A DNA stretch of 64,000 nucleotides from an uncultured Planctomycetota bacterium (GTDB lineage Bacteria; Planctomycetota; Planctomycetia; Isosphaerales; Isosphaeraceae): positions 928,001-992,000 of the forward strand of contig CAWGMQ010000007.1 in NCBI GenBank assembly GCA_963823665.1. The letters run 5' to 3'. Both the position numbers and the translations under genes were made by a program. How positions within the stretch are numbered: the first letter of the stretch is position 1; each line of letters starts with the position of its first letter. Positions 23,341-40,054 of this stretch are shown in pieces. The notes beneath the pieces were generated by a model. It searched no databases. It was not told the DNA's origin and saw only the letters and a program-made list of their open reading frames with translations.

Positions 23341-26200
23341 ATGCGCATGGCGTCATTTACATCATTGGTTGTCCTGGTGGCGTCGTCGTCGGATCTTCCG
23401 CGATTCGCGGTCAGGCATGCGGCGCTGGAGCAAGCTCGGTCGTCACGGCTTTCGGCTCGCTGGATCGGGCAGGACGGGCATGATTACGTGGGCCCGCATG
23501 AGAGGCTTGCGCCCAGCGATATTCAGGATATTCATATTGCGATTGCGGGACTGGATCCGCGCCGCGAGGTGGTCTTTGTCGAGGTCAGGTCAACCAACGG
23601 GAACTTCTGGCGATTTGCGGAGAAGCCGGAAGGGTATCGGGCCGAATTCAAACGTGCCAAGGGAGCACGGACGGGGGATGTGTTTTTCGAGCCGGCGGCG
23701 GTCGAGACGGGGCGGCCGTTTCATGTGCTGGTTCGCTACGAAGATGGATCGACAGCCGAGGCCGATCTGCCCGGCGGCAAGGCGGATGACAAGCTGCCAG
23801 TGAAGACCGTGGCACTTGCGGCGCGGTGGATCGGCCAGGACCGGCAAGACCGCACCGGAGCGGGGCCGTCGGTGGGCGGCGACGGGTTTCAAGACGTGCG
23901 GATCCATGTCAGCCGGCTTTCGACCAGGTTGACCCTCAAAGGAATCCGGGTTGTGGGGACGAGCGGCGCGACGTGGGAATCGGGGCCGAACCCCAAGCTG
24001 TTGCCGAGCGCCGAGCTGGTGCGCGACGCGAAGGATCCGTCTCAGGGCGACCTGTACTTCCAGCCGAATCGTGACTTGACGGGCCAACGACTGAAGCTGA
24101 CGGCCCTGTACGACAACGACCAGGTCGACACGACCACTGTGAACGCTGGGCGGTGCGATCCCGCGCTGCGGATGCCGCAAGTGGCGCTGCCGAAGTTTTC
24201 GGAAGTGGCGGCGGACGTCCGATGGCTGGGGCAGGATGGCTTGAGCGCGACCGCGCCGGGCGACGTACACCTGGCCATTTCGGGACTGCCGGGTTCGCAG
24301 GGGATCGCCGCCGCGGTTCTGAGCAACTCGCAACGAGGCGTGTGGATCTACCGCAAGAATGACCGCGCCAATGTGGCTGTCGATCCGTCAGCCGAATCGC
24401 TCACGATCAAGGCGAACGCGCAGAGCAGGTCACTCGACGTGTTCTTCCCTCCATATCGGGATGAGAGCAAGGGCACGATGACGCTGCGGTTGATTGCAGC
24501 CGACGGCCGGAGCTCGATCCTCCGGTTCGCCGGAGGCGTCTGCGACCCGGCCAAGCGCTCGGGCGAGCCGGTGCGGGAGAGCGCGACCGCGAAGCCGGGC
24601 GACGACCTTCAAAGCGTGGCCGATCGATTCGGGTCGATGACGCTTGGGGCCGGGACTTACCGGCTGAATAGGCCGCTCGTGCTCAACCGTCCGGTGGCGA
24701 TCGTCGCGGAGAACGGGGCTACGCTCGTCTTCTCACAGCCGGCGAGTGATGCGCCCTGGTCAGCGGCGATCAAGATTCATTGCGGCAACACGACGCTTTC
24801 CGGCTTCAGCGTGCGCATCGAAGGGCCGATCCGATGGAGGAACGACGTCGAGTATGGGCCGGCCTTGATCGGGATGACGGACAATTTCGATCAGGGTCAC
24901 GACGATCCCAAGTTCAACGTCGTCTTCAAGCGTTTAGACCTGGAGATTCCGGCGAGCAGCAAACTCCGCGGGCTGGGTGGACTCGCTCGGGCTCATGAGG
25001 CTGAAACGGGCCAGGAGCGGCGTGATCGAGGGGAACATCCTGCGCGGGGGCATGATCGAGTTTTTCGACGGGCCGTGGCGGATTGTCAGCAATGAATTTC
25101 GGGGCACGCCGCCCGGCAGCTATTCTCACGCGGTTTTCGCCGGTCACGGTGTTCACGACGTGCTCGTGCAGAATAACGTCACCAAGAGCGTGGGGCCCAG
25201 CGGCAAGACGTGGCGGTTTCTGGTCTTGACCTGGTTCGGCGCCGGAGACGTGGTCGAGGGAAACACGATCGAGCAGGTGGGGGCCCGGGATGACGACACG
25301 ATTCCGTGGAGCAATGAGCCGGAGATCATGCTGACGGAAGCCTATCACCTGAAGTACGAGGGTAAGGTCATGGCCCTGTCGACCGACGGACGAGTGCTGC
25401 GAACCGGGCAGCCGCAGGGTGACTGGGTGCGGACGGGTGATGTCGTCTCGCTGTTGAACGGGCCGGCGGCGGGCCAGTGGCGCCAGGTTGTACAGGCGCT
25501 CGAATCGACGGCCTATCTGGTTGATGCCGCGATTCCCGCGGGAACCGAGGTTGTGTCGATTTCGACGGCGTTTGTGGGTGAGACGTTTCAGAAGAACCGG
25601 GTGGATGTGCGGGGCGGCCGGCGGTCGTCGCCTCTTGTTCTCGCGGGCAACAACTTCGGAACGAGGGTTATCAAGAATCACTTCCTGGGAGGGGAGTTTG
25701 CGGTGCGGCTGACTGCCTTTCCCACGGAGTCGCCGGTGATCTGGGGCTGGTCGCACGCGCCGTTCCTGGGGGGTGTGATCGAAGGGAACGTTCTGGAGGA
25801 TGCGGAGAAGGGGGGGCTCGTCGGCGTCGAGCACGACGGGCGTTTCATCAAGACGAACCAGGGGCGGGTTTACATGACGGCCGCGCTCAATGACAACGAA
25901 GTGCGGTGGAGCGAGGGCTTTTTGAGCAGAGCAGCCGGAACGGGCTCGAGAGACACGCCGCCGGGGCTCACGCTGGGGTACGCGCCGTCGCACGACGCCG
26001 GTGAGCTTGTGGTGACGGTGCGCGGCAACCGGCTGGTGGCACCGGCGGGGCGGGAATCGGCGAAGGCGCTGGTGATTCCCGCGGCTGATTACAACGGGGG
26101 GCGGGTGCAAAACCGCAGGCTGCCGCTTTCGGATAACGGTGCGGGTGCGCGCCCGACCTCGCGCGCGGCAAGCACGAAGGCCGGCGCTCGTTCGCGATAA
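23341..26200 (+). CDS. Secreted protein with three N-terminal repeats and a parallel beta-helix (pectin-lyase-like) domain (frameshift near 24965)
   Basis: RWIGQD/RWLGQD repeated three times; LGAGTYRL, VIEGN, VQNN, VEGN beta-helix turns. Confidence 0.7.
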
Positions 26201-28969: not shown

Positions 28970-29280
28970 GGGAAGCCAGGGAAGCCAGACATCCACTCTG
29001 GCGAGTGGGTTCCGGAGAAGCCACGCGGGGAAGCCAGACATCCACTCTCTCGAGGGGAAGCCAGGGAAGCCAGACATCCGCTCTGTCGAGGAGTGGGGAA
29101 GCCAGACATCCACTCTGTCGAGGAGGGGAAGCCAGACATCCACTCTGTCGAGGAGTGGGGAAGCCAGGAAGCCAGACATCCACTCTGTCGAGTGGGTTCC
29201 GGAGAAGCCACGCGGGGAAGCCAGACATCGGGAAGCCAGACATCCACTCTCTCGAGTGGGTTCCGGAGAAGCCACGCGAA
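28970..29280 (+). repeat. Array of 11 head-to-tail, variably truncated copies of a transposon end
   Basis: (G)GGAAGCCA starts at 28970, 28979, 29028, 29055, 29064, 29096, 29126, 29158, 29167, 29215, 29230. Confidence 0.9.
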
Positions 29281-29545
29281 GGTGGCTCGCACCGGTTCGC
29301 GTGCCGCGAATGCTGGGTGCCTCGCGGCCGATGCGACGCACAGCAGATACTATACCACGCGCGGTAAGCAACCGGGTGCGCTCTGGTGCCTCGCCGGCGC
29401 TCGCACGCATCGGTTGCTGGGAACCGTTAGAGATGGACGGCGGTGCTTTGTCGCGCCGGCGAAACGGAACGACGCTTGCCGGCCTTGAATCCAATCGAAT
29501 TCCGCACCTACCGCTACCACCAAGGCTCACAAGCGAGCCGCTTAC

Positions 29546-30270
29546 TTACAGAAACGCGACCTGCGCGGCCGCCTTGCCCTGAAACCAGCACCGTGAACAA
29601 CGCGGTGCGGCACGCACAAGCGAGCTCGCTCGACCTGCCGCTTGCTTGAACATGCGACCGAAGTCGCGCACCGTGTCCACCCAATTCGTTCGATCCACTC
29701 CCAGCCGGTCCAGGATGGGAGCCAGGTCTTCCGGGATTGCCCCACGCTTGTCCCGCCCCCCCGGCCCGTCCAATCGAGCAGCATGACGTACTTTCTGGTC
29801 TCGATCGGCAGAAATCCTTGATCCGACGCCGGCGCAGGGAGCGGCCGTTTTGACGCCGCCTGGAGCGGCACGGCCGAGACCGTGGCTGAGGAGCCAGCGT
29901 CGGCCATCAGCATCGCCAGGTCGTTGTCGTCGGGCTCCGCCGGCTCGCCCGTAACATCGTCGCGTTGCGGAAAGAGCTTGTGCCAGCGCAGAGCGACTTC
30001 GGTGTCGGACCACAGTTCGACGCGGTCGGGTCGATTGCGGAGCACAAGATGCAGATGGTTGCTCATAATGGCGTAACTACACACATCAATTCCGAAGAGT
30101 CCGGCGAGGTGGCGTAGGCGATCGATAATCCACGCCTTACGGTGAGAGTAATCACGACCGGAGTAGGAGTCGGTGCCGCGAAGGAAGGCTCTGCGGACGC
30201 ACCGAGCAATGCAGTCATACACACCGACGAACGCCTCTTGCACGATGTGGCGGCGTGCAGAGGCAGGCAC
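29546..30270 (-). pseudogene. RAYT-like Y1 transposase with internal deletion
   Basis: CIARCVRRAFL and MSNHLHLVL present; segment with YIDLNP seen in the copy at 38364-39580 is missing. Confidence 0.85.
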
Positions 30271-30335
30271 GTAAGGCTCCATTACCATGCAGGTGCAGCA
30301 CGTTAGCGAGAGTATTCATAAGGTCAGTAATGGAC

Positions 30336-30363
30336 AAAATAGCAACAGTGGCGCGGGTGTCAA
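30336..30363 (-). promoter_or_regulatory. Putative sigma70 promoter of transposase 1
   Basis: TTGACA-16 nt-TATTTT, conserved upstream of both transposases while the spacer diverges. Confidence 0.65.
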
Positions 30364-30513
30364 GAGTCTTGAGAAAAAATTTGACAGACAGCGAAGAGGG
30401 TTCGCTCGGAGCGACCAAGACTTGCGACGACCGCCGCCACGGCTGCGCGGGGACGACCCTGGCGCGACATCTGGATGAGGGATGCCATCTTCACATCAGA
30501 TAGGTGGGTGTCT

Positions 30514-32524
30514 TTGCGTCAGGAAAAGCTCGAGAAAGGAGGAAGTGCCTCGAAACACAGAAACCTTTCATCGCGACCCTGCGGGTTAACGAATCCCGCC
30601 CGGCAGAGCCTGGCCGGCAGCCGGAAGCAAGTCTTGCGTGGGGAGGGGTGACCCTCACTGCGAAGCGTAGACAGCGAGTCTCCATGCCATGCTATCGAGC
30701 CCCGAAATACTCATCGTGGGAGCCTCCGTTGTAGACACAAGCGGGGGCCGTGTCGACACGCCGCAATGGCCTGGCGTGTTCGGTCCTGCCGGGGTCCAAG
30801 AACATGGCGCAGGGACGCGAGGGTTGCTCGGGAACCTGAGAGCCCCATCCGTCTCCACTGACATTTCCGGCTCGGGATCCGGAATACCAACTCCCCGGCC
30901 CACGACCTCGCGTCGGGTCGCTGGGAGCGAACAGGACGCAAGGGTGGTATCGCCACACGAAGGCAACGAAGTGCGGCGAAAGGGGCGGATGGGAGTCGGA
31001 GCGTCTCGTAGTACCGTTGAAGCCGGGGAACCACTCCGAGGGACCCGGTGGAGGGAAGGAGACGCCATGTCACACAACCGTTGGAGGGAAACATGGCGGG
31101 TGCATCGGAACCCGTGGACGTGTCCACGAAACAACAACGGATAGCGGAACTCGCTCGGCGAAGCCCGGAGATGGGATTCACATCCCTGGGGCACTTCATC
31201 GACCTCGATTGGCTGCTCACAGCTTACTACCGGACCCGCCAAGACGGGGCGGTGGGCGTAGACGGACAAGATGGCGAGGCCTACGCAGCGAACCTGGTCC
31301 CGAACCTACGGTCGCTGCTGGAACGAGCCAAGTCCGGTACGTACCACGCACCGCCTGTGCGGCGAGTGCATATCCCCAAGGCAGGCTCAGCGACCGAAAC
31401 CCGGCCACTGGGAATCCCGACCTTCGAGGATAAAGTGCTCCAGCGTGCTGTCGTGATGGTTCTGGAGGCGATATACGAGCAGGACTTCAAGAACTGCTCG
31501 CATGGCTTCCGGCCCGAGCGATCGGCACACACTGCGTTAGAGAGCCTGTGGCAACAGACGATGAACATGAAGGGCGGATGGGTAGTGGATGTGGACATTC
31601 GTAAGTTCTTTGACACGATTGACCACGGCCATCTACGCGACTTCCTCAAGCGTCGGGTGCGAGACGGAGTGCTGCTCCGGCTCATCGGCAAATGGCTCAA
31701 TGCGGGCGTCTTCGAGAACGGGTGCGTTACGCACCCCGAAATGGGGTCGCCACAAGGGGGTGTGATCAGCCCGATCCTTTCGAATATCTTCCTGCACTAC
31801 GTGCTGGACGAGTGGTTCGAGCGGGAGGTTCAGCCTCGGATGATGGGCAGATCGTTCTTGATCCGCTATGCGGACGACTTCGTCATGGTCTTCTCATGCG
31901 AGTCCGACGCACGGCGTGTGATGAATGTGTTGCCCAAACGCTTTGAGAAGTACGGCTTGACCATCCACCCGGACAAGACGCGGCTGGTGCCGTTCGAGCG
32001 GCCATCGGACCGTCCCAAACCGGAAGGCAGACCCACACGAACTCCACCAGGGACTTTCGACCTGCTGGCGTTCACCCATTACTGGGGTCGCTCCCGGCAG
32101 GGTCGCTGGGTGGTGAAGCGCAAGACGTCCAAAAGTCGATTTCGCCGCAGCCTGCGAACGTTGGCGGATTGGTGTCGCAAAAATCGCCATCAACCGCTCA
32201 AGGTGCAGCACCGGATACTAGGTCAGAAACTGCTAGGCCACTATGCCTACTACGGAATCACCGGCAACTCCAAAATGTTGTCACGGTTTCGCAGTGGTGC
32301 CACCTGGCTCTGGCAGCACTGGCTGTCGCGCCGCGGCGCGGCCGTCGGATGACGTGGGATCGGTTCGCTCGTTTCCTGAAGCATAAACCGCTTCCGGCAG
32401 CGATCGCGATCCACTCGGTATGCCGTCTCGTAGCGAACAAGTGACATGACGAGCCGGGTGCCTGAATTGGGCAAGCCCGGATCTGTGGGAGCCTTGGGGG
32501 AGCGATCCCCCAAGGCGACCCGGC
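30514..32524 (+). mobile_element. Group II intron
   Basis: 5' TTGCG; domain V GAGCCGGGTGCCTGAATTGGGCAAGCCCGGATC at 32451; domain VI hairpin ending CGACCCGGC; EBS1-like AGACAC at 30733 complementary to the 5' exon GTGTCT. Confidence 0.92.
31093..32444 (+). CDS. ltrA: Group II intron reverse transcriptase/maturase without endonuclease domain (frameshift near 32340)
   Basis: GVDG, RPLGIP, GFRP, DIRKFFD, GSPQGG, RYADD, GHYAYY maturase X motif. Confidence 0.93.
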
Positions 32525-32809
32525 GCCTTCCCTTGTTAACATCAATCTTTGCGGTTTCCCTCATCACTTAACATGCAAGAAGTATGCCCCCAAAAGATCG
32601 TCGATCTCACGCACCTGTTGCAAGACTTCGTTTGCAGTTGGGAGTCGACCTAGAAGTTGAAATCGAATACGAAATAGGGTCCAAAGATCATTTATCTTAT
32701 CATGAACGTTCCCCGCAACGGCAACTAGATTGCCTGGGTTGTTGTATTCCCGCGAGGAAGACCTGTTCGCTGCCCTCGATAAAGCAATCGCGCAGAGGTC
32801 GAAAGAGGT

Positions 32810-32916
32810 GGGAGCCACGGACAGTTGATACGCCAGATCGTCCTGAGAAAGCCCCGCTCGATCGCTCGGCTCATGCCGATCGCCGGCTTAATCCGTTGAT
32901 GGGTGTCTGGAATCCC
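32810..32916. mobile_element. Short non-coding unit ending in the transposon end motif
   Basis: GGGTGTCTGGAATCCC at 32901-32916; weaker left motif GGGAGCCACGGACAG at 32810. Confidence 0.55.
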
Positions 32917-34587: not shown

Positions 34588-34738
34588 GGGATGTCAGACA
34601 CCCACCGTTTGCCGAGTGTCGGGCACTGGCCTTCTGCGTGTTCGAAATGACCAGAAGCCGTGGTTTTGCACCGAACGAGCGAGCCGCGAATGAGTGGATG
34701 CGGAGGACCGTGACAAAAGGATGGGTGACTGGATTCCC
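34588..34738. mobile_element. 151-bp miniature element with inverted end motifs
   Basis: GGGATGTCAGACACCC ... GGGTGACTGGATTCCC (12/16 complementary); left end continues ACCGTT like the end at 39720-39741. Confidence 0.7.
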
Positions 34739-37595: not shown

Positions 37596-38363
37596 TAAAT
37601 CACAGTTTCGGGGACGCTCTGCTTACTTGGACGGCCGTCGGCTCGGTCCGCGTTTGTGCCGTTTGACGGTTGTGTTCAGTATTCTTCGGGCCAGGCCAGA
37701 AAGATTACTTGGTCGTGCACTCTGCCCGTTTGTTGGTGACCACGCATCAGTTCCACTTCTACCTCCGGAATGACGATCGCAACGAAGACAAACCGGTGGG
37801 CGCTAAGTCGAAGAGAGGGACTCAGGGACTCAAGGGACTCAGACACCCACTCACTGGAGTGGGTTCCGGGGAAGGCGGACGCAGGTGAGTGGCACCGATT
37901 CGCGTACCTCGGTTGCTGGGTGACCCGCGGCCCTTCGCGGCCGACGCCGCGCACAGTAGGCAATGTACCACGCTCAGTCAGCGATCGTACGCGCTTGGGT
38001 AGGTTGCCGGCCACTGCACGCGTCGAAGATGCAAAGACACCCACTCACTGGAGTGGGTTCCGGGGAAGGCGGACGCAAGTGAGTGGCACCGCTTCAGGTA
38101 CCGCGATTGCTGGGTGACTCGCGGCCCCTCGCGGCCAACGCCGCGCACAGCAGACGCTGACCACGCTCGGTCAGCGATCGTATGCGCCTTGGTAGGTCGC
38201 CGGCGCTTGCATGTGTCGGTGCTGCGAACCGATCGATATCGACGGCGGTGCTTCTTCGCTTGCCGCGCCGCGCAGGGAACGAGGCTCGCCGACCTCGAAT
38301 TCAATTGAATTCCGGGTCCGTTGCACCGACTGGCGCTCGGGAGAGAGCGAGCGAGCCTCTTAC

Positions 38364-39580
38364 CTACAAAAACGCGAGTTGAGCGGCCGCCTTGCCCTGA
38401 AACCAGCGCCGTGAGCAACGCAGTGCAGCACGTATAAGCGAACTCGCTCGACCTGCCGCTTGCTTGAACATGCGACCGAAGTCGCGCACCGTCTCCACCC
38501 AATTCGTTCGATCCACTCCCAGCCGGTCCAGAATGGGAGCCAGGTCTTCCGCAATTGCCCCGCGCTTGTCCCGCCTGATTTCCCGGCCCGTCGATCGAGC
38601 AGCATGACGTACTTTCTGGTCTCGATCGGCAGAAATCCTTGATTCGACGCCCGCACAGGGAGCGGCCGTTTTGACGCCGCCTGGAGCGGCACGGCCGAAA
38701 ACGTGGCTGAAGAACCAGCAGGTGCCCGACGCCCCGCAGCATCGACATGGTCACCCGCGATCGGTTCGCACGCCTCAACCGTTTCTGAGGATGCAGCCGG
38801 CGAGCCTTCGGCCTGCCTGGTTATGGGAACGACCTCGTTCTCCCGCAACGTCAGTTCGCACAGCCAGGGACCCGCGCGATTGGAAGTTTCAGTTGAGCCT
38901 TCCTCGCGCGATGAACACAATCCACCCGGAGCGCCGACCAGGTCCAGAATGCGGTCAGCCCCCGACGTGAATTGCGATTTCTCCGGCGTAGTGGCGATTC
39001 CCGCCCGAATCGGGTTGAGATCGATATAGACGCTGCACGCCAAAAGCGCCGCCTCATCGAGCAGCGGCTGCGACTTGAAGCGGCCGGCCCAGAATCTCCC
39101 GGGCGAGTCGTCCTCGCGATTGGCCGCTCGGGCGACCCACTCGCACAAGCACCTCATGAACCACGACAGACTCGACAGCCGGCCGCGCTGAGCCGCCAGC
39201 CTCTCAGCATCGCCCATGAGCATCGCAAGGTCTTGGTCGTCGGGCTCCGCCGGCTCGCCGGTGACATCGTCACGTTGCGGACAGAGCTTGCGCCAGCGTA
39301 GTGCGACTTCGGCGTCGGACCAAAGCTCAACACTGTCGGGTCGATTGCGAAGCACCAGATGCAGGTGGTTACTCATAATGGCATAACCGCACACCTCAAC
39401 GCCGAAGAGTCCGGCGAGGTGGCGCAGCCGATCGAGAATCCACGCCTTACGGTGAGAGTAATCACGACCTGAATAGCAGTCGGTACCGCAAAGAAAAGCT
39501 CTTCGAACCCACCGAGCGATGCAGTGATAAACACCGACTTGATCCTCGTGGACGATGTCGCGGCGAGCAGAGGCTGGCAC
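38364..39580 (-). CDS. RAYT-like HUH/Y1 transposase (one frameshift near 38590)
   Basis: YHCIAR.VRRAFLCG, MSNHLHLVL (HUH), GRFWAGRFKS, YIDLNPIRAG; GTG after GGAG. Confidence 0.88.
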
Positions 39581-39644
39581 GTAAGGCTCCATCACCAGGC
39601 AGGTGTAGTACGTCAGGTGCATATCCACACGAACAGTAATGGAC

Positions 39645-39672
39645 AAAATACCAATACTGCGGCGGTTGTCAA
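39645..39672 (-). promoter_or_regulatory. Putative sigma70 promoter of transposase 2
   Basis: TTGACA-16 nt-TATTTT. Confidence 0.65.
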
Positions 39673-39751
39673 GCGTGTTGGGAAAAAAAGTCGACAGCAC
39701 ACACGTTCTACTCGAAGCGAACGGTGGATGTCTGGCTTTCCTTGCGCGCAC

Positions 39752-40054
39752 TCGCACGATGCCGGTGAGCTGGTGGTCACTGCACGCGGCAACCGGCTGG
39801 TGGCACCGGCGGGGTGGGAATCTGCAAACGCGCTGGTGATTCCTGCGGCGGATTACAACGGGGGGCGGGTGCAGAACCGCAAGCTGGCGCTTTCGGATGA
39901 CGGTGCGGACGCGCGGGCGACCTCGCGCACGGCGGGCAAGAAGCCAGGGACTCGCGCGCTGAGTGGCTTGGGCGGTTCGGGGACCGCGGGCGGCTCACCG
40001 CTCGTTGAAGTCGTCAATCACCCGTCGGTTGTTCGGACGTCTCAATCAGCGTAA
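39752..40054 (+). pseudogene. Orphan diverged copy of the 3' end of the beta-helix gene
   Basis: SHDAGELVVTARGNRLVAPAG...ALVIPAADYNGGRVQNR matches 25988-26170. Confidence 0.85.

What the first reader, a model, noticed from the sequence alone, without database searches (positions are those of the whole stretch)
30503..32532. Group II intron inserted precisely inside the transposon end motif
Seen: deleting 30514-32524 joins GGGTGTCT to GCCTTCCC, giving GGGTGTCTGCCTTCCC, a 14/16 match to the reverse complement of the left end GGGAAGCCAGACATCC. A hairpin loop in domain I (30722-30748) displays AGACAC, complementary to the 5' exon GTGTCT, which is the most conserved core of the motif. The intron is antisense to the transposase and cargo and encodes no endonuclease domain. 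Established: group IIC-attC introns parasitise integron attC sites in antisense orientation. Inference: this is an intron lineage specialised on the ends of these Y1 elements; 32901-32916 holds an unoccupied GTGTCT target.
Basis: partly seen in the sequence, partly recalled or inferred. Interest (0 to 1): 0.78.

Follow-up and report, generated by a model that had tools for sequence, protein, structure and literature searches.

The report
Intron homing into transposase end repeats
A self-splicing mobile intron has copied itself 20 times into one exact spot of a short repeat that marks the ends of a family of tyrosine-transposase elements; hiding in the ends of other mobile DNA is a known intron strategy, but this target family appears not to have been described.

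Summary
The element is an endonuclease-less group II intron at 30514-32524, probably class E. The genome holds 20 copies (6 with the protein gene, 14 without). All 20 sit after TGGGTGTC, and 18 are followed by G. EBS1 (30733-38), EBS3 (30797) and a weaker EBS2 covary with the flanks across 75 homologues.

The target 10-mer occurs 194 times (control 8). It brackets long HUH/Y1 transposase genes and ~149-bp inverted-repeat units.

- Only 1 of 20 copies sits at a transposase gene; 14 sit in short non-coding units.
- Orientation follows the chromosome strand, not the transposase.
- Recognition is by base pairing, as in RmInt2 (which homes into IS inverted repeats), not by a hairpin as in IIC-attC.
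- Specialisation is partial: 20 of 42 close homologues use the related TIRYT end core, with repeated EBS1 retargeting; others use unrelated targets.

No paper on introns in TIRYT ends turned up in my searches. This scan has noted similar cases on other DNA. Verdict: a real, well-supported new variant of a known strategy.

The parts
30514..32524 (+). Group II intron, IIB-type, probably class E; begins TTGCG, ends GGC
30505..30513 (+). 5' half of the interrupted end motif; IBS1 = 30508-30513, IBS2 just upstream
32525..32532 (+). 3' half of the interrupted end motif; first base G = IBS3
30733..30738 (+). EBS1 (AGACAC)
   Evidence: exon positions -1 to -5 pair in 64-73 of 74-75 homologues, 21-28 expected
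30708..30716 (+). EBS2 region; two registers possible
   Evidence: columns 30710-12 covary with -10 to -12; register 30711-16 pairs 4-6 of 6 in the 20 copies
30797..30797 (+). EBS3 (C)
   Evidence: pairs with +1 in 65 of 75, 37.8 expected
31093..32352 (+). RT/maturase gene, no endonuclease; one base missing near 32334 in this copy
32451..32524 (+). Domains V (5-nt loop) and VI
   Evidence: z = -4.6
29542..30309 (-). Broken HUH/Y1 transposase gene (frameshifted, about 485 nt deleted)
28979..29246 (-). Tandem array of 8 end motifs at the far end of the Y1 remnant
32900..32916 (+). Empty target motif, no inverted partner seen nearby
34589..34737 (.). 149-bp non-coding unit with the motif as terminal inverted repeats; at least 40 relatives in the genome; both ends empty
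37834..39757 (-). Second Y1 element: open frame 38360-39757 with HuH and Y---NP motifs, bracketed by outward-facing motifs at 37834 and 39725

Best explanation
This is a mobile, endonuclease-less, IIB-type (probably class E) group II intron. It retrohomes by base pairing: EBS1, EBS2 and EBS3 read about 12 bases of a motif that forms the terminal inverted repeats of a long HUH/Y1 transposase family (subclass 2.3-like) and of its short non-coding derivatives. SHOWN: the boundaries, the pairing, the identity of the target as a repeat bracketing Y1 genes, and one insertion strand per region. INFERRED: reverse splicing into single-stranded lagging-strand template at the replication fork, primed by nascent DNA as in RmInt1/RmInt2. 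Because the target is an inverted repeat, each unit offers one site on the favoured strand. The 14 ORF-less copies are probably mobilised in trans. Relatives read the TIRYT core CTGAC[AC]|CC or GTGTCC|CC; this sub-lineage has changed EBS1 to read a different Y1 end family. The gain for the intron is about 200 non-coding, self-renewing safe sites.
For: 20 of 20 copies follow TGGGTGTC and 18 of 20 precede G. The 10-mer occurs 194 times against 8 for the reversed control. The motif faces outward upstream of 10 of 16 and downstream of 11 of 16 long-Y1 matches. 7 of 8 motif-rich genomes among 121 family genomes hold 3 or more long-Y1 matches, against 1 of the other 113. EBS1-IBS1 pair at 5 or more of 6 in 73 of 76 distinct pairs (shuffled mean 22, max 32). 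The TIRYT core lies at the junction in 20 of 42 homologues at 64% identity or more, against 0.5% of random flank positions. Junction sequences of L073, L080 and L059 match Y1-gene ends in their own genomes. The same GGGTGTCT junction occurs in three other genera, all motif-rich. In ten regions, 20 occupied and 17 empty sites lie on one strand, 0 occupied and 46 empty on the other; G>C skew is positive on the intron strand in 8 of 10 clusters.
Against: No splicing or mobility was observed: no contig joint skips the intron in 4 runs. Local repeat tests around homologous insertions were weak (2 of 46; 1 of 19). A Y1 gene within 1 kb was found for 4 of 14 core-type loci against 1 of 23 others (p = 0.057). 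62 of 84 homologues lack the TIRYT core, including L081-L084 and L086 inside the nearest clade. Skew is near zero in 2 of 10 clusters, and replication direction is not known. Most arrayed units share one orientation, so strand bias and end preference are separated by only two reversed units. The class assignment rests on one presumed class E reference (support 86/91). Mobility of the 149-bp units by the Y1 enzyme was not tested.
Confidence: 0.85

Rival explanations
1. No lineage-level specialisation. EBS1 drifts freely in this intron class, and variants that happen to match an abundant repeat simply reach high copy number and are over-sampled.
For: Homologues show many unrelated targets. Only 2 of 42 distant homologues carry the core. 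The target 10-mer is almost all repeat in this genome, so pairing alone explains the flanks.
Against: Two separate supported clades (14 rows at 100 and 9 rows at 98) keep TIR-type targets across genera and phyla through several EBS1 changes (UGUCAG, GGUCAG, GGACAC, GGACAU). Two further homologues (L108, L110) sit in motifs beside Y1 genes at other positions.
Confidence: 0.3
2. IIC-attC-like recognition: the protein reads the hairpin formed by the unit's inverted ends, and pairing is secondary.
For: The units fold into long hairpins closed by the terminal motifs. Position +7 is C in 20 of 20 copies although no EBS reads it.
Against: A full 6-bp EBS1, EBS3 and EBS2 covary. 6 of 20 copies have no inverted partner within 400 nt. 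The RT groups away from the class C-like reference. The +7 C follows from the repeat's own sequence.
Confidence: 0.08
3. The copies arose passively, by duplication or Y1-mediated transposition of an intron-bearing unit rather than by independent homing.
For: Several copies share about 140 nt of upstream unit sequence and cluster in arrays.
Against: Copies lie in both ends of the 149-bp unit, in other unit families, in a Y1 gene end and in tandem. Units differ by 5-19% while full-length intron copies are 99-100% alike.
Confidence: 0.07

Closest known systems
RmInt2 of Sinorhizobium meliloti GR4 (class D; PMC4615759, PMC5894124, passages read)
   Same: Endonuclease-less IIB-type intron whose copies all lie in the inverted repeats of another mobile element (ISRm17). 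Two targets per element on opposite strands, lagging-strand-template bias, EBS1/2/3 pairing.
   Different: Here the class is probably E (31.8% identity to RmInt1). The target is a Y1/HUH end motif present about 200 times, mostly in non-coding units. The habit extends across a clade with EBS1 changes, and ORF-less copies outnumber full ones.
TIRtrons / TIRYT (PMC3733652, passages) and TnpA-Y1 subclasses 2.1 and 2.3 (10.1101/279083, section 18 and passages)
   Same: Y1 genes flanked by terminal inverted repeats; TIR repeats dispersed as monomers, dimers and clusters. The GGGGWSAS core is the reverse complement of the relatives' target.
   Different: The motif here is a variant that does not fit GGGGWSAS well, and it flanks a long Y1 with subclass 2.3-like insertions, for which the preprint found no REP-like structures. 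'Intron' has 0 hits in PMC3733652 and 'group II intron' 0 in the preprint.
Group IIC-attC introns (PMC7923331, PMC4424553, passages)
   Same: Parasite of a dispersed recombination-type repeat; lacks En; lands in gene-poor positions among small accessory genes.
   Different: IIC has a 3-4-bp EBS1, no EBS2 and needs an upstream stem-loop, with a fixed antisense orientation. None of these holds here.
IS elements that target REPs: ISPa11, ISPpu9/10, ISPsy8, ISRm19/22, IS1397, IS621 (PMC1525189, passages and tables)
   Same: Every copy breaks the repeat at one fixed position.
   Different: They are DNA transposons. That paper's table lists only 2 of 9 P. putida group II introns as REP-associated.
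Class E group II introns (PMC3753933, PMC3552965, passages)
   Same: No En domain, 5-nt loop in DV, alpha' in a terminal loop, EBS2 present.
   Different: U1 with penultimate G in most of this clade (64 T/G, 25 G/A, 3 other of 92). The passages I read describe no repeat target for the class.

Membership tests
Group II intron | DI-DVI ribozyme with catalytic DV | tested here: met
   RF02005 at 138 bits; DV/DVI fold z = -4.6. RF00029 did not reach its gathering score in the window.
Group II intron | RT/maturase in DIV | tested here: met
   TIGR04416 330 bits against cut-off 300
Group II intron | Splices and retrohomes | not testable with these tools
   Contigs of 4 runs show no intron-skipping joint; 20 sites imply past mobility
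Class E (IIE) | IEP falls in the class E clade | tested here: inconclusive
   Groups with the disrupted RT on pRmeGR4b, taken by me to be S.me.I4, against RmInt1, a class C-like RT and a CL-like RT (86/91). One presumed reference only.
Class E (IIE) | No En; 5-nt DV loop; alpha' in a terminal loop | tested here: met
   these features are shared with class F (PMC3753933)
IIC / IIC-attC | No EBS2, short EBS1, upstream stem-loop required | tested here: not met
   EBS1 covaries at five positions and EBS2 at three; 6 of 20 sites lack an inverted partner
IIC / IIC-attC | Target is an attC site (RYYYAAC...GTTRRRY) | tested here: not met
   Unit ends read GGA...CAGACACCCA and TGGGTGTCTG...TCC
TIRtron/TIRYT | Y1 gene flanked by terminal inverted repeats | tested here: met
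   Outward motif upstream in 10 of 16 and downstream in 11 of 16 long-Y1 matches
TIRtron/TIRYT | GGGGWSAS core in the TIR (most, not all, TIRYTs) | tested here: not met
   Not met at the window's junction; met with at most 1 mismatch (my pattern also allows A at position 6) in 22 of 84 homologues
TnpA-Y1 subclass 2.3 | Long protein, Y---NP, insertions after beta1 and beta3 | tested here: inconclusive
   Sequence fits the published description by eye; no profile to test. NF047646 32.7 bits, below cut-off 80.
REP/REPIN with RAYT | Short palindrome with a 5' GTAG/GTGG foot | tested here: inconclusive
   The motif is an imperfect short palindrome used as an inverted doublet 120-150 nt apart; no canonical foot was tested
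TIRtron/TIRYT | Transposase binds and moves the repeats | not testable with these tools
   Needs biochemistry

The most novel reading that the evidence does not exclude
The ~149-bp inverted-repeat units are the recombination sites of an integron-like gene-cassette system run by a HUH/Y1 transposase instead of a tyrosine recombinase. They cluster 1-3 kb apart around one or two small genes (PIN, ParDE, Xre antitoxin, nucleotidyltransferase), while 20 flanking 20-kb stretches hold 5 motif hits in all. This intron clade would then be the base-pairing counterpart of IIC-attC introns, following such sites from one Y1 family to another by rewriting EBS1.
Probability: 0.15. Interest if true: 0.8.

Novelty: new variant of a known kind. 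Interest (0 to 1): 0.47.

Why it matters
It extends the RmInt2 strategy (homing into another element's inverted repeats) to HUH/Y1 elements and shows it at clade scale, with natural EBS1 retargeting between end families. The introns also act as markers: they point to the terminal motif of a long Y1 family for which the published survey found no flanking structure, and to an undescribed family of short non-coding units. That makes the open question of what TIRYT-type enzymes act on testable with defined substrates. The pairing mechanism itself is textbook.

Tried and rejected
Local repeat-enrichment tests around homologous insertions were mostly negative (2 of 46; 1 of 19 core-type and 0 of 29 others). 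They are too strict for degenerate motifs and are reported as weak.

A single pattern over 25 relatives' genomes showed modest enrichment in some genomes (G018 80 vs 12, G021 39 vs 8) and none in others. It does not separate target classes, and G021's intron does not use that motif.

Laying 4 runs found no joint skipping the intron. These are contigs, so absence shows nothing; the RNA runs cover only the intron body, at 90-99% likeness, and do not show transcription.

A PDB sequence search with the Y1 protein found nothing relevant. The plasmid pPAES01 (first 50 kb) gave no class E reference. The careful 70-row tree did not finish, so the quick tree was used.

Unidirectional cassette orientation was considered: genes between units face both ways, so a classic integron layout is rejected. 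A cargo transposon at 28979-32532 is rejected, since only a broken Y1 gene lies inside.

Toro 2013 supplements were listed but not read, and its alignment figures are not held. bioRxiv supplements are closed; Table S1 of 10.1101/279083 could bear on the subclass 2.3 ends.

Full report
1. The observation. The window holds a group II ribozyme (RF02005, 30590-30804, 138 bits) and an RT/maturase without HNH. DV and DVI fold well. Removing 30514-32524 restores a 16-mer matching the left motif at 14 of 16 positions, EBS1 starts at 30733, and an empty site lies at 32900-32916. The left 'end' is an array of 8 motif copies. Between that array and the intron lies only a broken Y1 gene.

2. Copies in the genome. 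A pattern search finds 20 5' ends: 6 copies with the protein gene and 14 ORF-less copies of 732-733 nt. Positions -9 to -2 are TGGGTGTC in 20 of 20, -1 is T in 19, +1 is G in 18 and +7 is C in 20. This fixes both boundaries. Only 2 of the 6 protein genes read through without a break. The window copy lacks one base near 32334, which may be a sequencing error. In public runs, one contig leaves the intron at about 32525 into the flank of another copy and one spans the 5' junction; these runs may include the source sample.

3. The target. TGGGTGTCTG occurs 194 times against 8 for the reversed control. It appears in two settings. First, it faces outward on both sides of a long HUH/Y1 transposase: upstream of 10 of 16 and downstream of 11 of 16 matches examined (16 of the 30 loci returned). 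Second, it forms the terminal inverted repeats of 138-164-bp non-coding units. The 149-bp family has at least 40 members at 81-95% identity (40 of 96 candidates scored). Among 121 genomes of the family, 8 hold 49 or more copies of the 10-mer. Seven of these have 3 or more close Y1 matches, against 1 of the other 113; kin are not independent, and G068, the exception, is 73% complete. The protein has the HuH and Y---NP motifs and fits the description of subclass 2.3 (10.1101/279083, section 18; judged by eye). Y1 genes with terminal inverted repeats are the TIRtrons of PMC3733652 (passages read). Of the 20 intron copies, 14 have an inverted partner within 300 nt, two more are tandem insertions beside such a copy, and only the window copy abuts a Y1 gene.

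4. Recognition. I took 159 homologous loci (80, 79). EBS1 pairs with the 5' exon at 5 or more of 6 positions in 73 of 76 distinct pairs (shuffled mean 22, max 32). A blind column scan over 75 distinct rows picks 30733-30737 for -1 to -5, 30797 for +1 (65 of 75, 37.8 expected), and 30710-30712 for -10 to -12. This is IIB-type recognition. The RT groups with a presumed class E reference against class D, C-like and CL-like references (86/91). DV has the 5-nt loop that PMC3753933 gives for classes E and F.

5. The lineage. Both ends could be defined in 84 of the 159 loci; 75 were dropped for a missing end. The TIRYT core spans the junction in 22 of 84: 20 of 42 at 64% identity or more, 2 of 42 below, against 98 of 20,100 random flank positions. 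Several loci come from one genome; distinct junction 8-mers give 4 of 6 and 7 of 24 in the two upper bands. On the quick tree these targets fill most of the nearest 20-row clade and a second 9-row clade, with exceptions inside (L084, L086) and unrelated targets elsewhere. In seven relatives' genomes, 8 of 12 RAYT-type genes carry this core 77-81 nt upstream of the domain, against 1 of 18 other Y1 loci at a like distance (30 of 85 matches). The junctions of L073, L080 and L059 match such ends in their own genomes. Introns abut Y1 genes in L068, L073, L074, L079, L095 and L108, although the formal contrast is weak (4 of 14 vs 1 of 23, p = 0.057) and local repeat tests were mostly negative. The window's own junction recurs in G068, G067 and G060, all motif-rich.

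6. Orientation. Relatives downstream of a Y1 gene are in sense orientation, and those upstream are antisense, so 'antisense' only reflects which end was hit. In ten regions of this genome, 20 occupied and 17 empty sites lie on one strand, and 0 occupied and 46 empty on the other. Two reversed units were hit at their opposite end, keeping the strand. G>C skew on the intron strand is positive in 8 of 10 clusters and near zero in 2. This fits insertion into the lagging-strand template, as shown for RmInt1 and RmInt2 (PMC5894124, PMC4615759, passages), but replication direction is inferred.

7. Prior art. RmInt2 lies in the inverted repeats of ISRm17, and its authors give the same rationale: doubled targets, one always on the lagging strand (PMC4615759). 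IS elements that target REPs are known (PMC1525189). Introns hiding in mobile elements is general (PMC7306698, passages). My searches found no paper on group II introns in TIRYT or RAYT ends. Most subscription papers are outside the library. The scan's own notes list five similar cases in other genomes. I did not check them and count them as no support; I had reached the TIRYT reading from the papers before seeing them. No look-alike by sequence was on record.

8. Verdict. The feature is real, and the target is a Y1 end motif. It works like RmInt2 and is not a IIC-attC intron. It is a new variant of a known kind; interest 0.47. The bolder reading, Y1-run cassette arrays with an intron parasite, rests on clustering and gene content only and is weakened by mixed gene orientation; probability 0.15.

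Noticed in passing
L168:12707-15126, L170:7783-10202, L171:9444-11863, L172, L176, L177, L178: A second intron (2420 nt, 569-aa RT with HNH, CL-like) sits in 7 of 7 examined copies between DV and DVI of this intron family or of a related ORF-less family: an intron that homes into the catalytic end of other introns.
   Followed up: partly
G000 C11:551-580 kb, C6:910-923 kb, C3:186-206 kb, C5:1-8 kb and others: Arrays of 138-164-bp inverted-repeat units, 1-3 kb apart, separate small accessory genes including toxin-antitoxin pairs; gene orientation is mixed.
   Followed up: partly
14 sites in G000, e.g. L168:5453-6184: The 732-nt ORF-less form shares its first ~546 nt with the intron at 95% but has its own DIV-DVI, so it looks like a recombinant rather than a simple deletion.
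   Followed up: partly
L173:8169, L173:9451, L172:12264, L172:14641: A 163-bp unit family carries, internally, the target followed by the intron's first 8 bases: a chance match or a captured junction.
   Followed up: no
L178 near 13740, minus strand: A 21st junction retaining only about 20 nt of the intron's 5' end.
   Followed up: no
L064, L066, L068, L136: In a Thermoguttaceae genome, 4 of 6 homologous loci have DV interrupted at one position by the same element, whose ORF start looks IS110-like to me from recall.
   Followed up: no
L372, L373, L376, L377 (G068): RT-less 3007-nt relatives with the same EBS1 carry a ~2.3-kb insertion in the ribozyme, of unknown nature.
   Followed up: no
L058 and window 30728-30740: The EBS1 loop of the nearest relatives and the loop here are complementary to overlapping parts of the same kind of motif, four bases apart, suggesting retargeting by a register shift (inference).
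   Followed up: no
G065: 23 matches to the long Y1 family but only 14 copies of the motif, so probably a different end sequence.
   Followed up: no
window 25981-26195 and 39745-39959: A 215-nt stretch from the end of a beta-helix-like gene is repeated at 85% directly beyond the second Y1 element's end.
   Followed up: no
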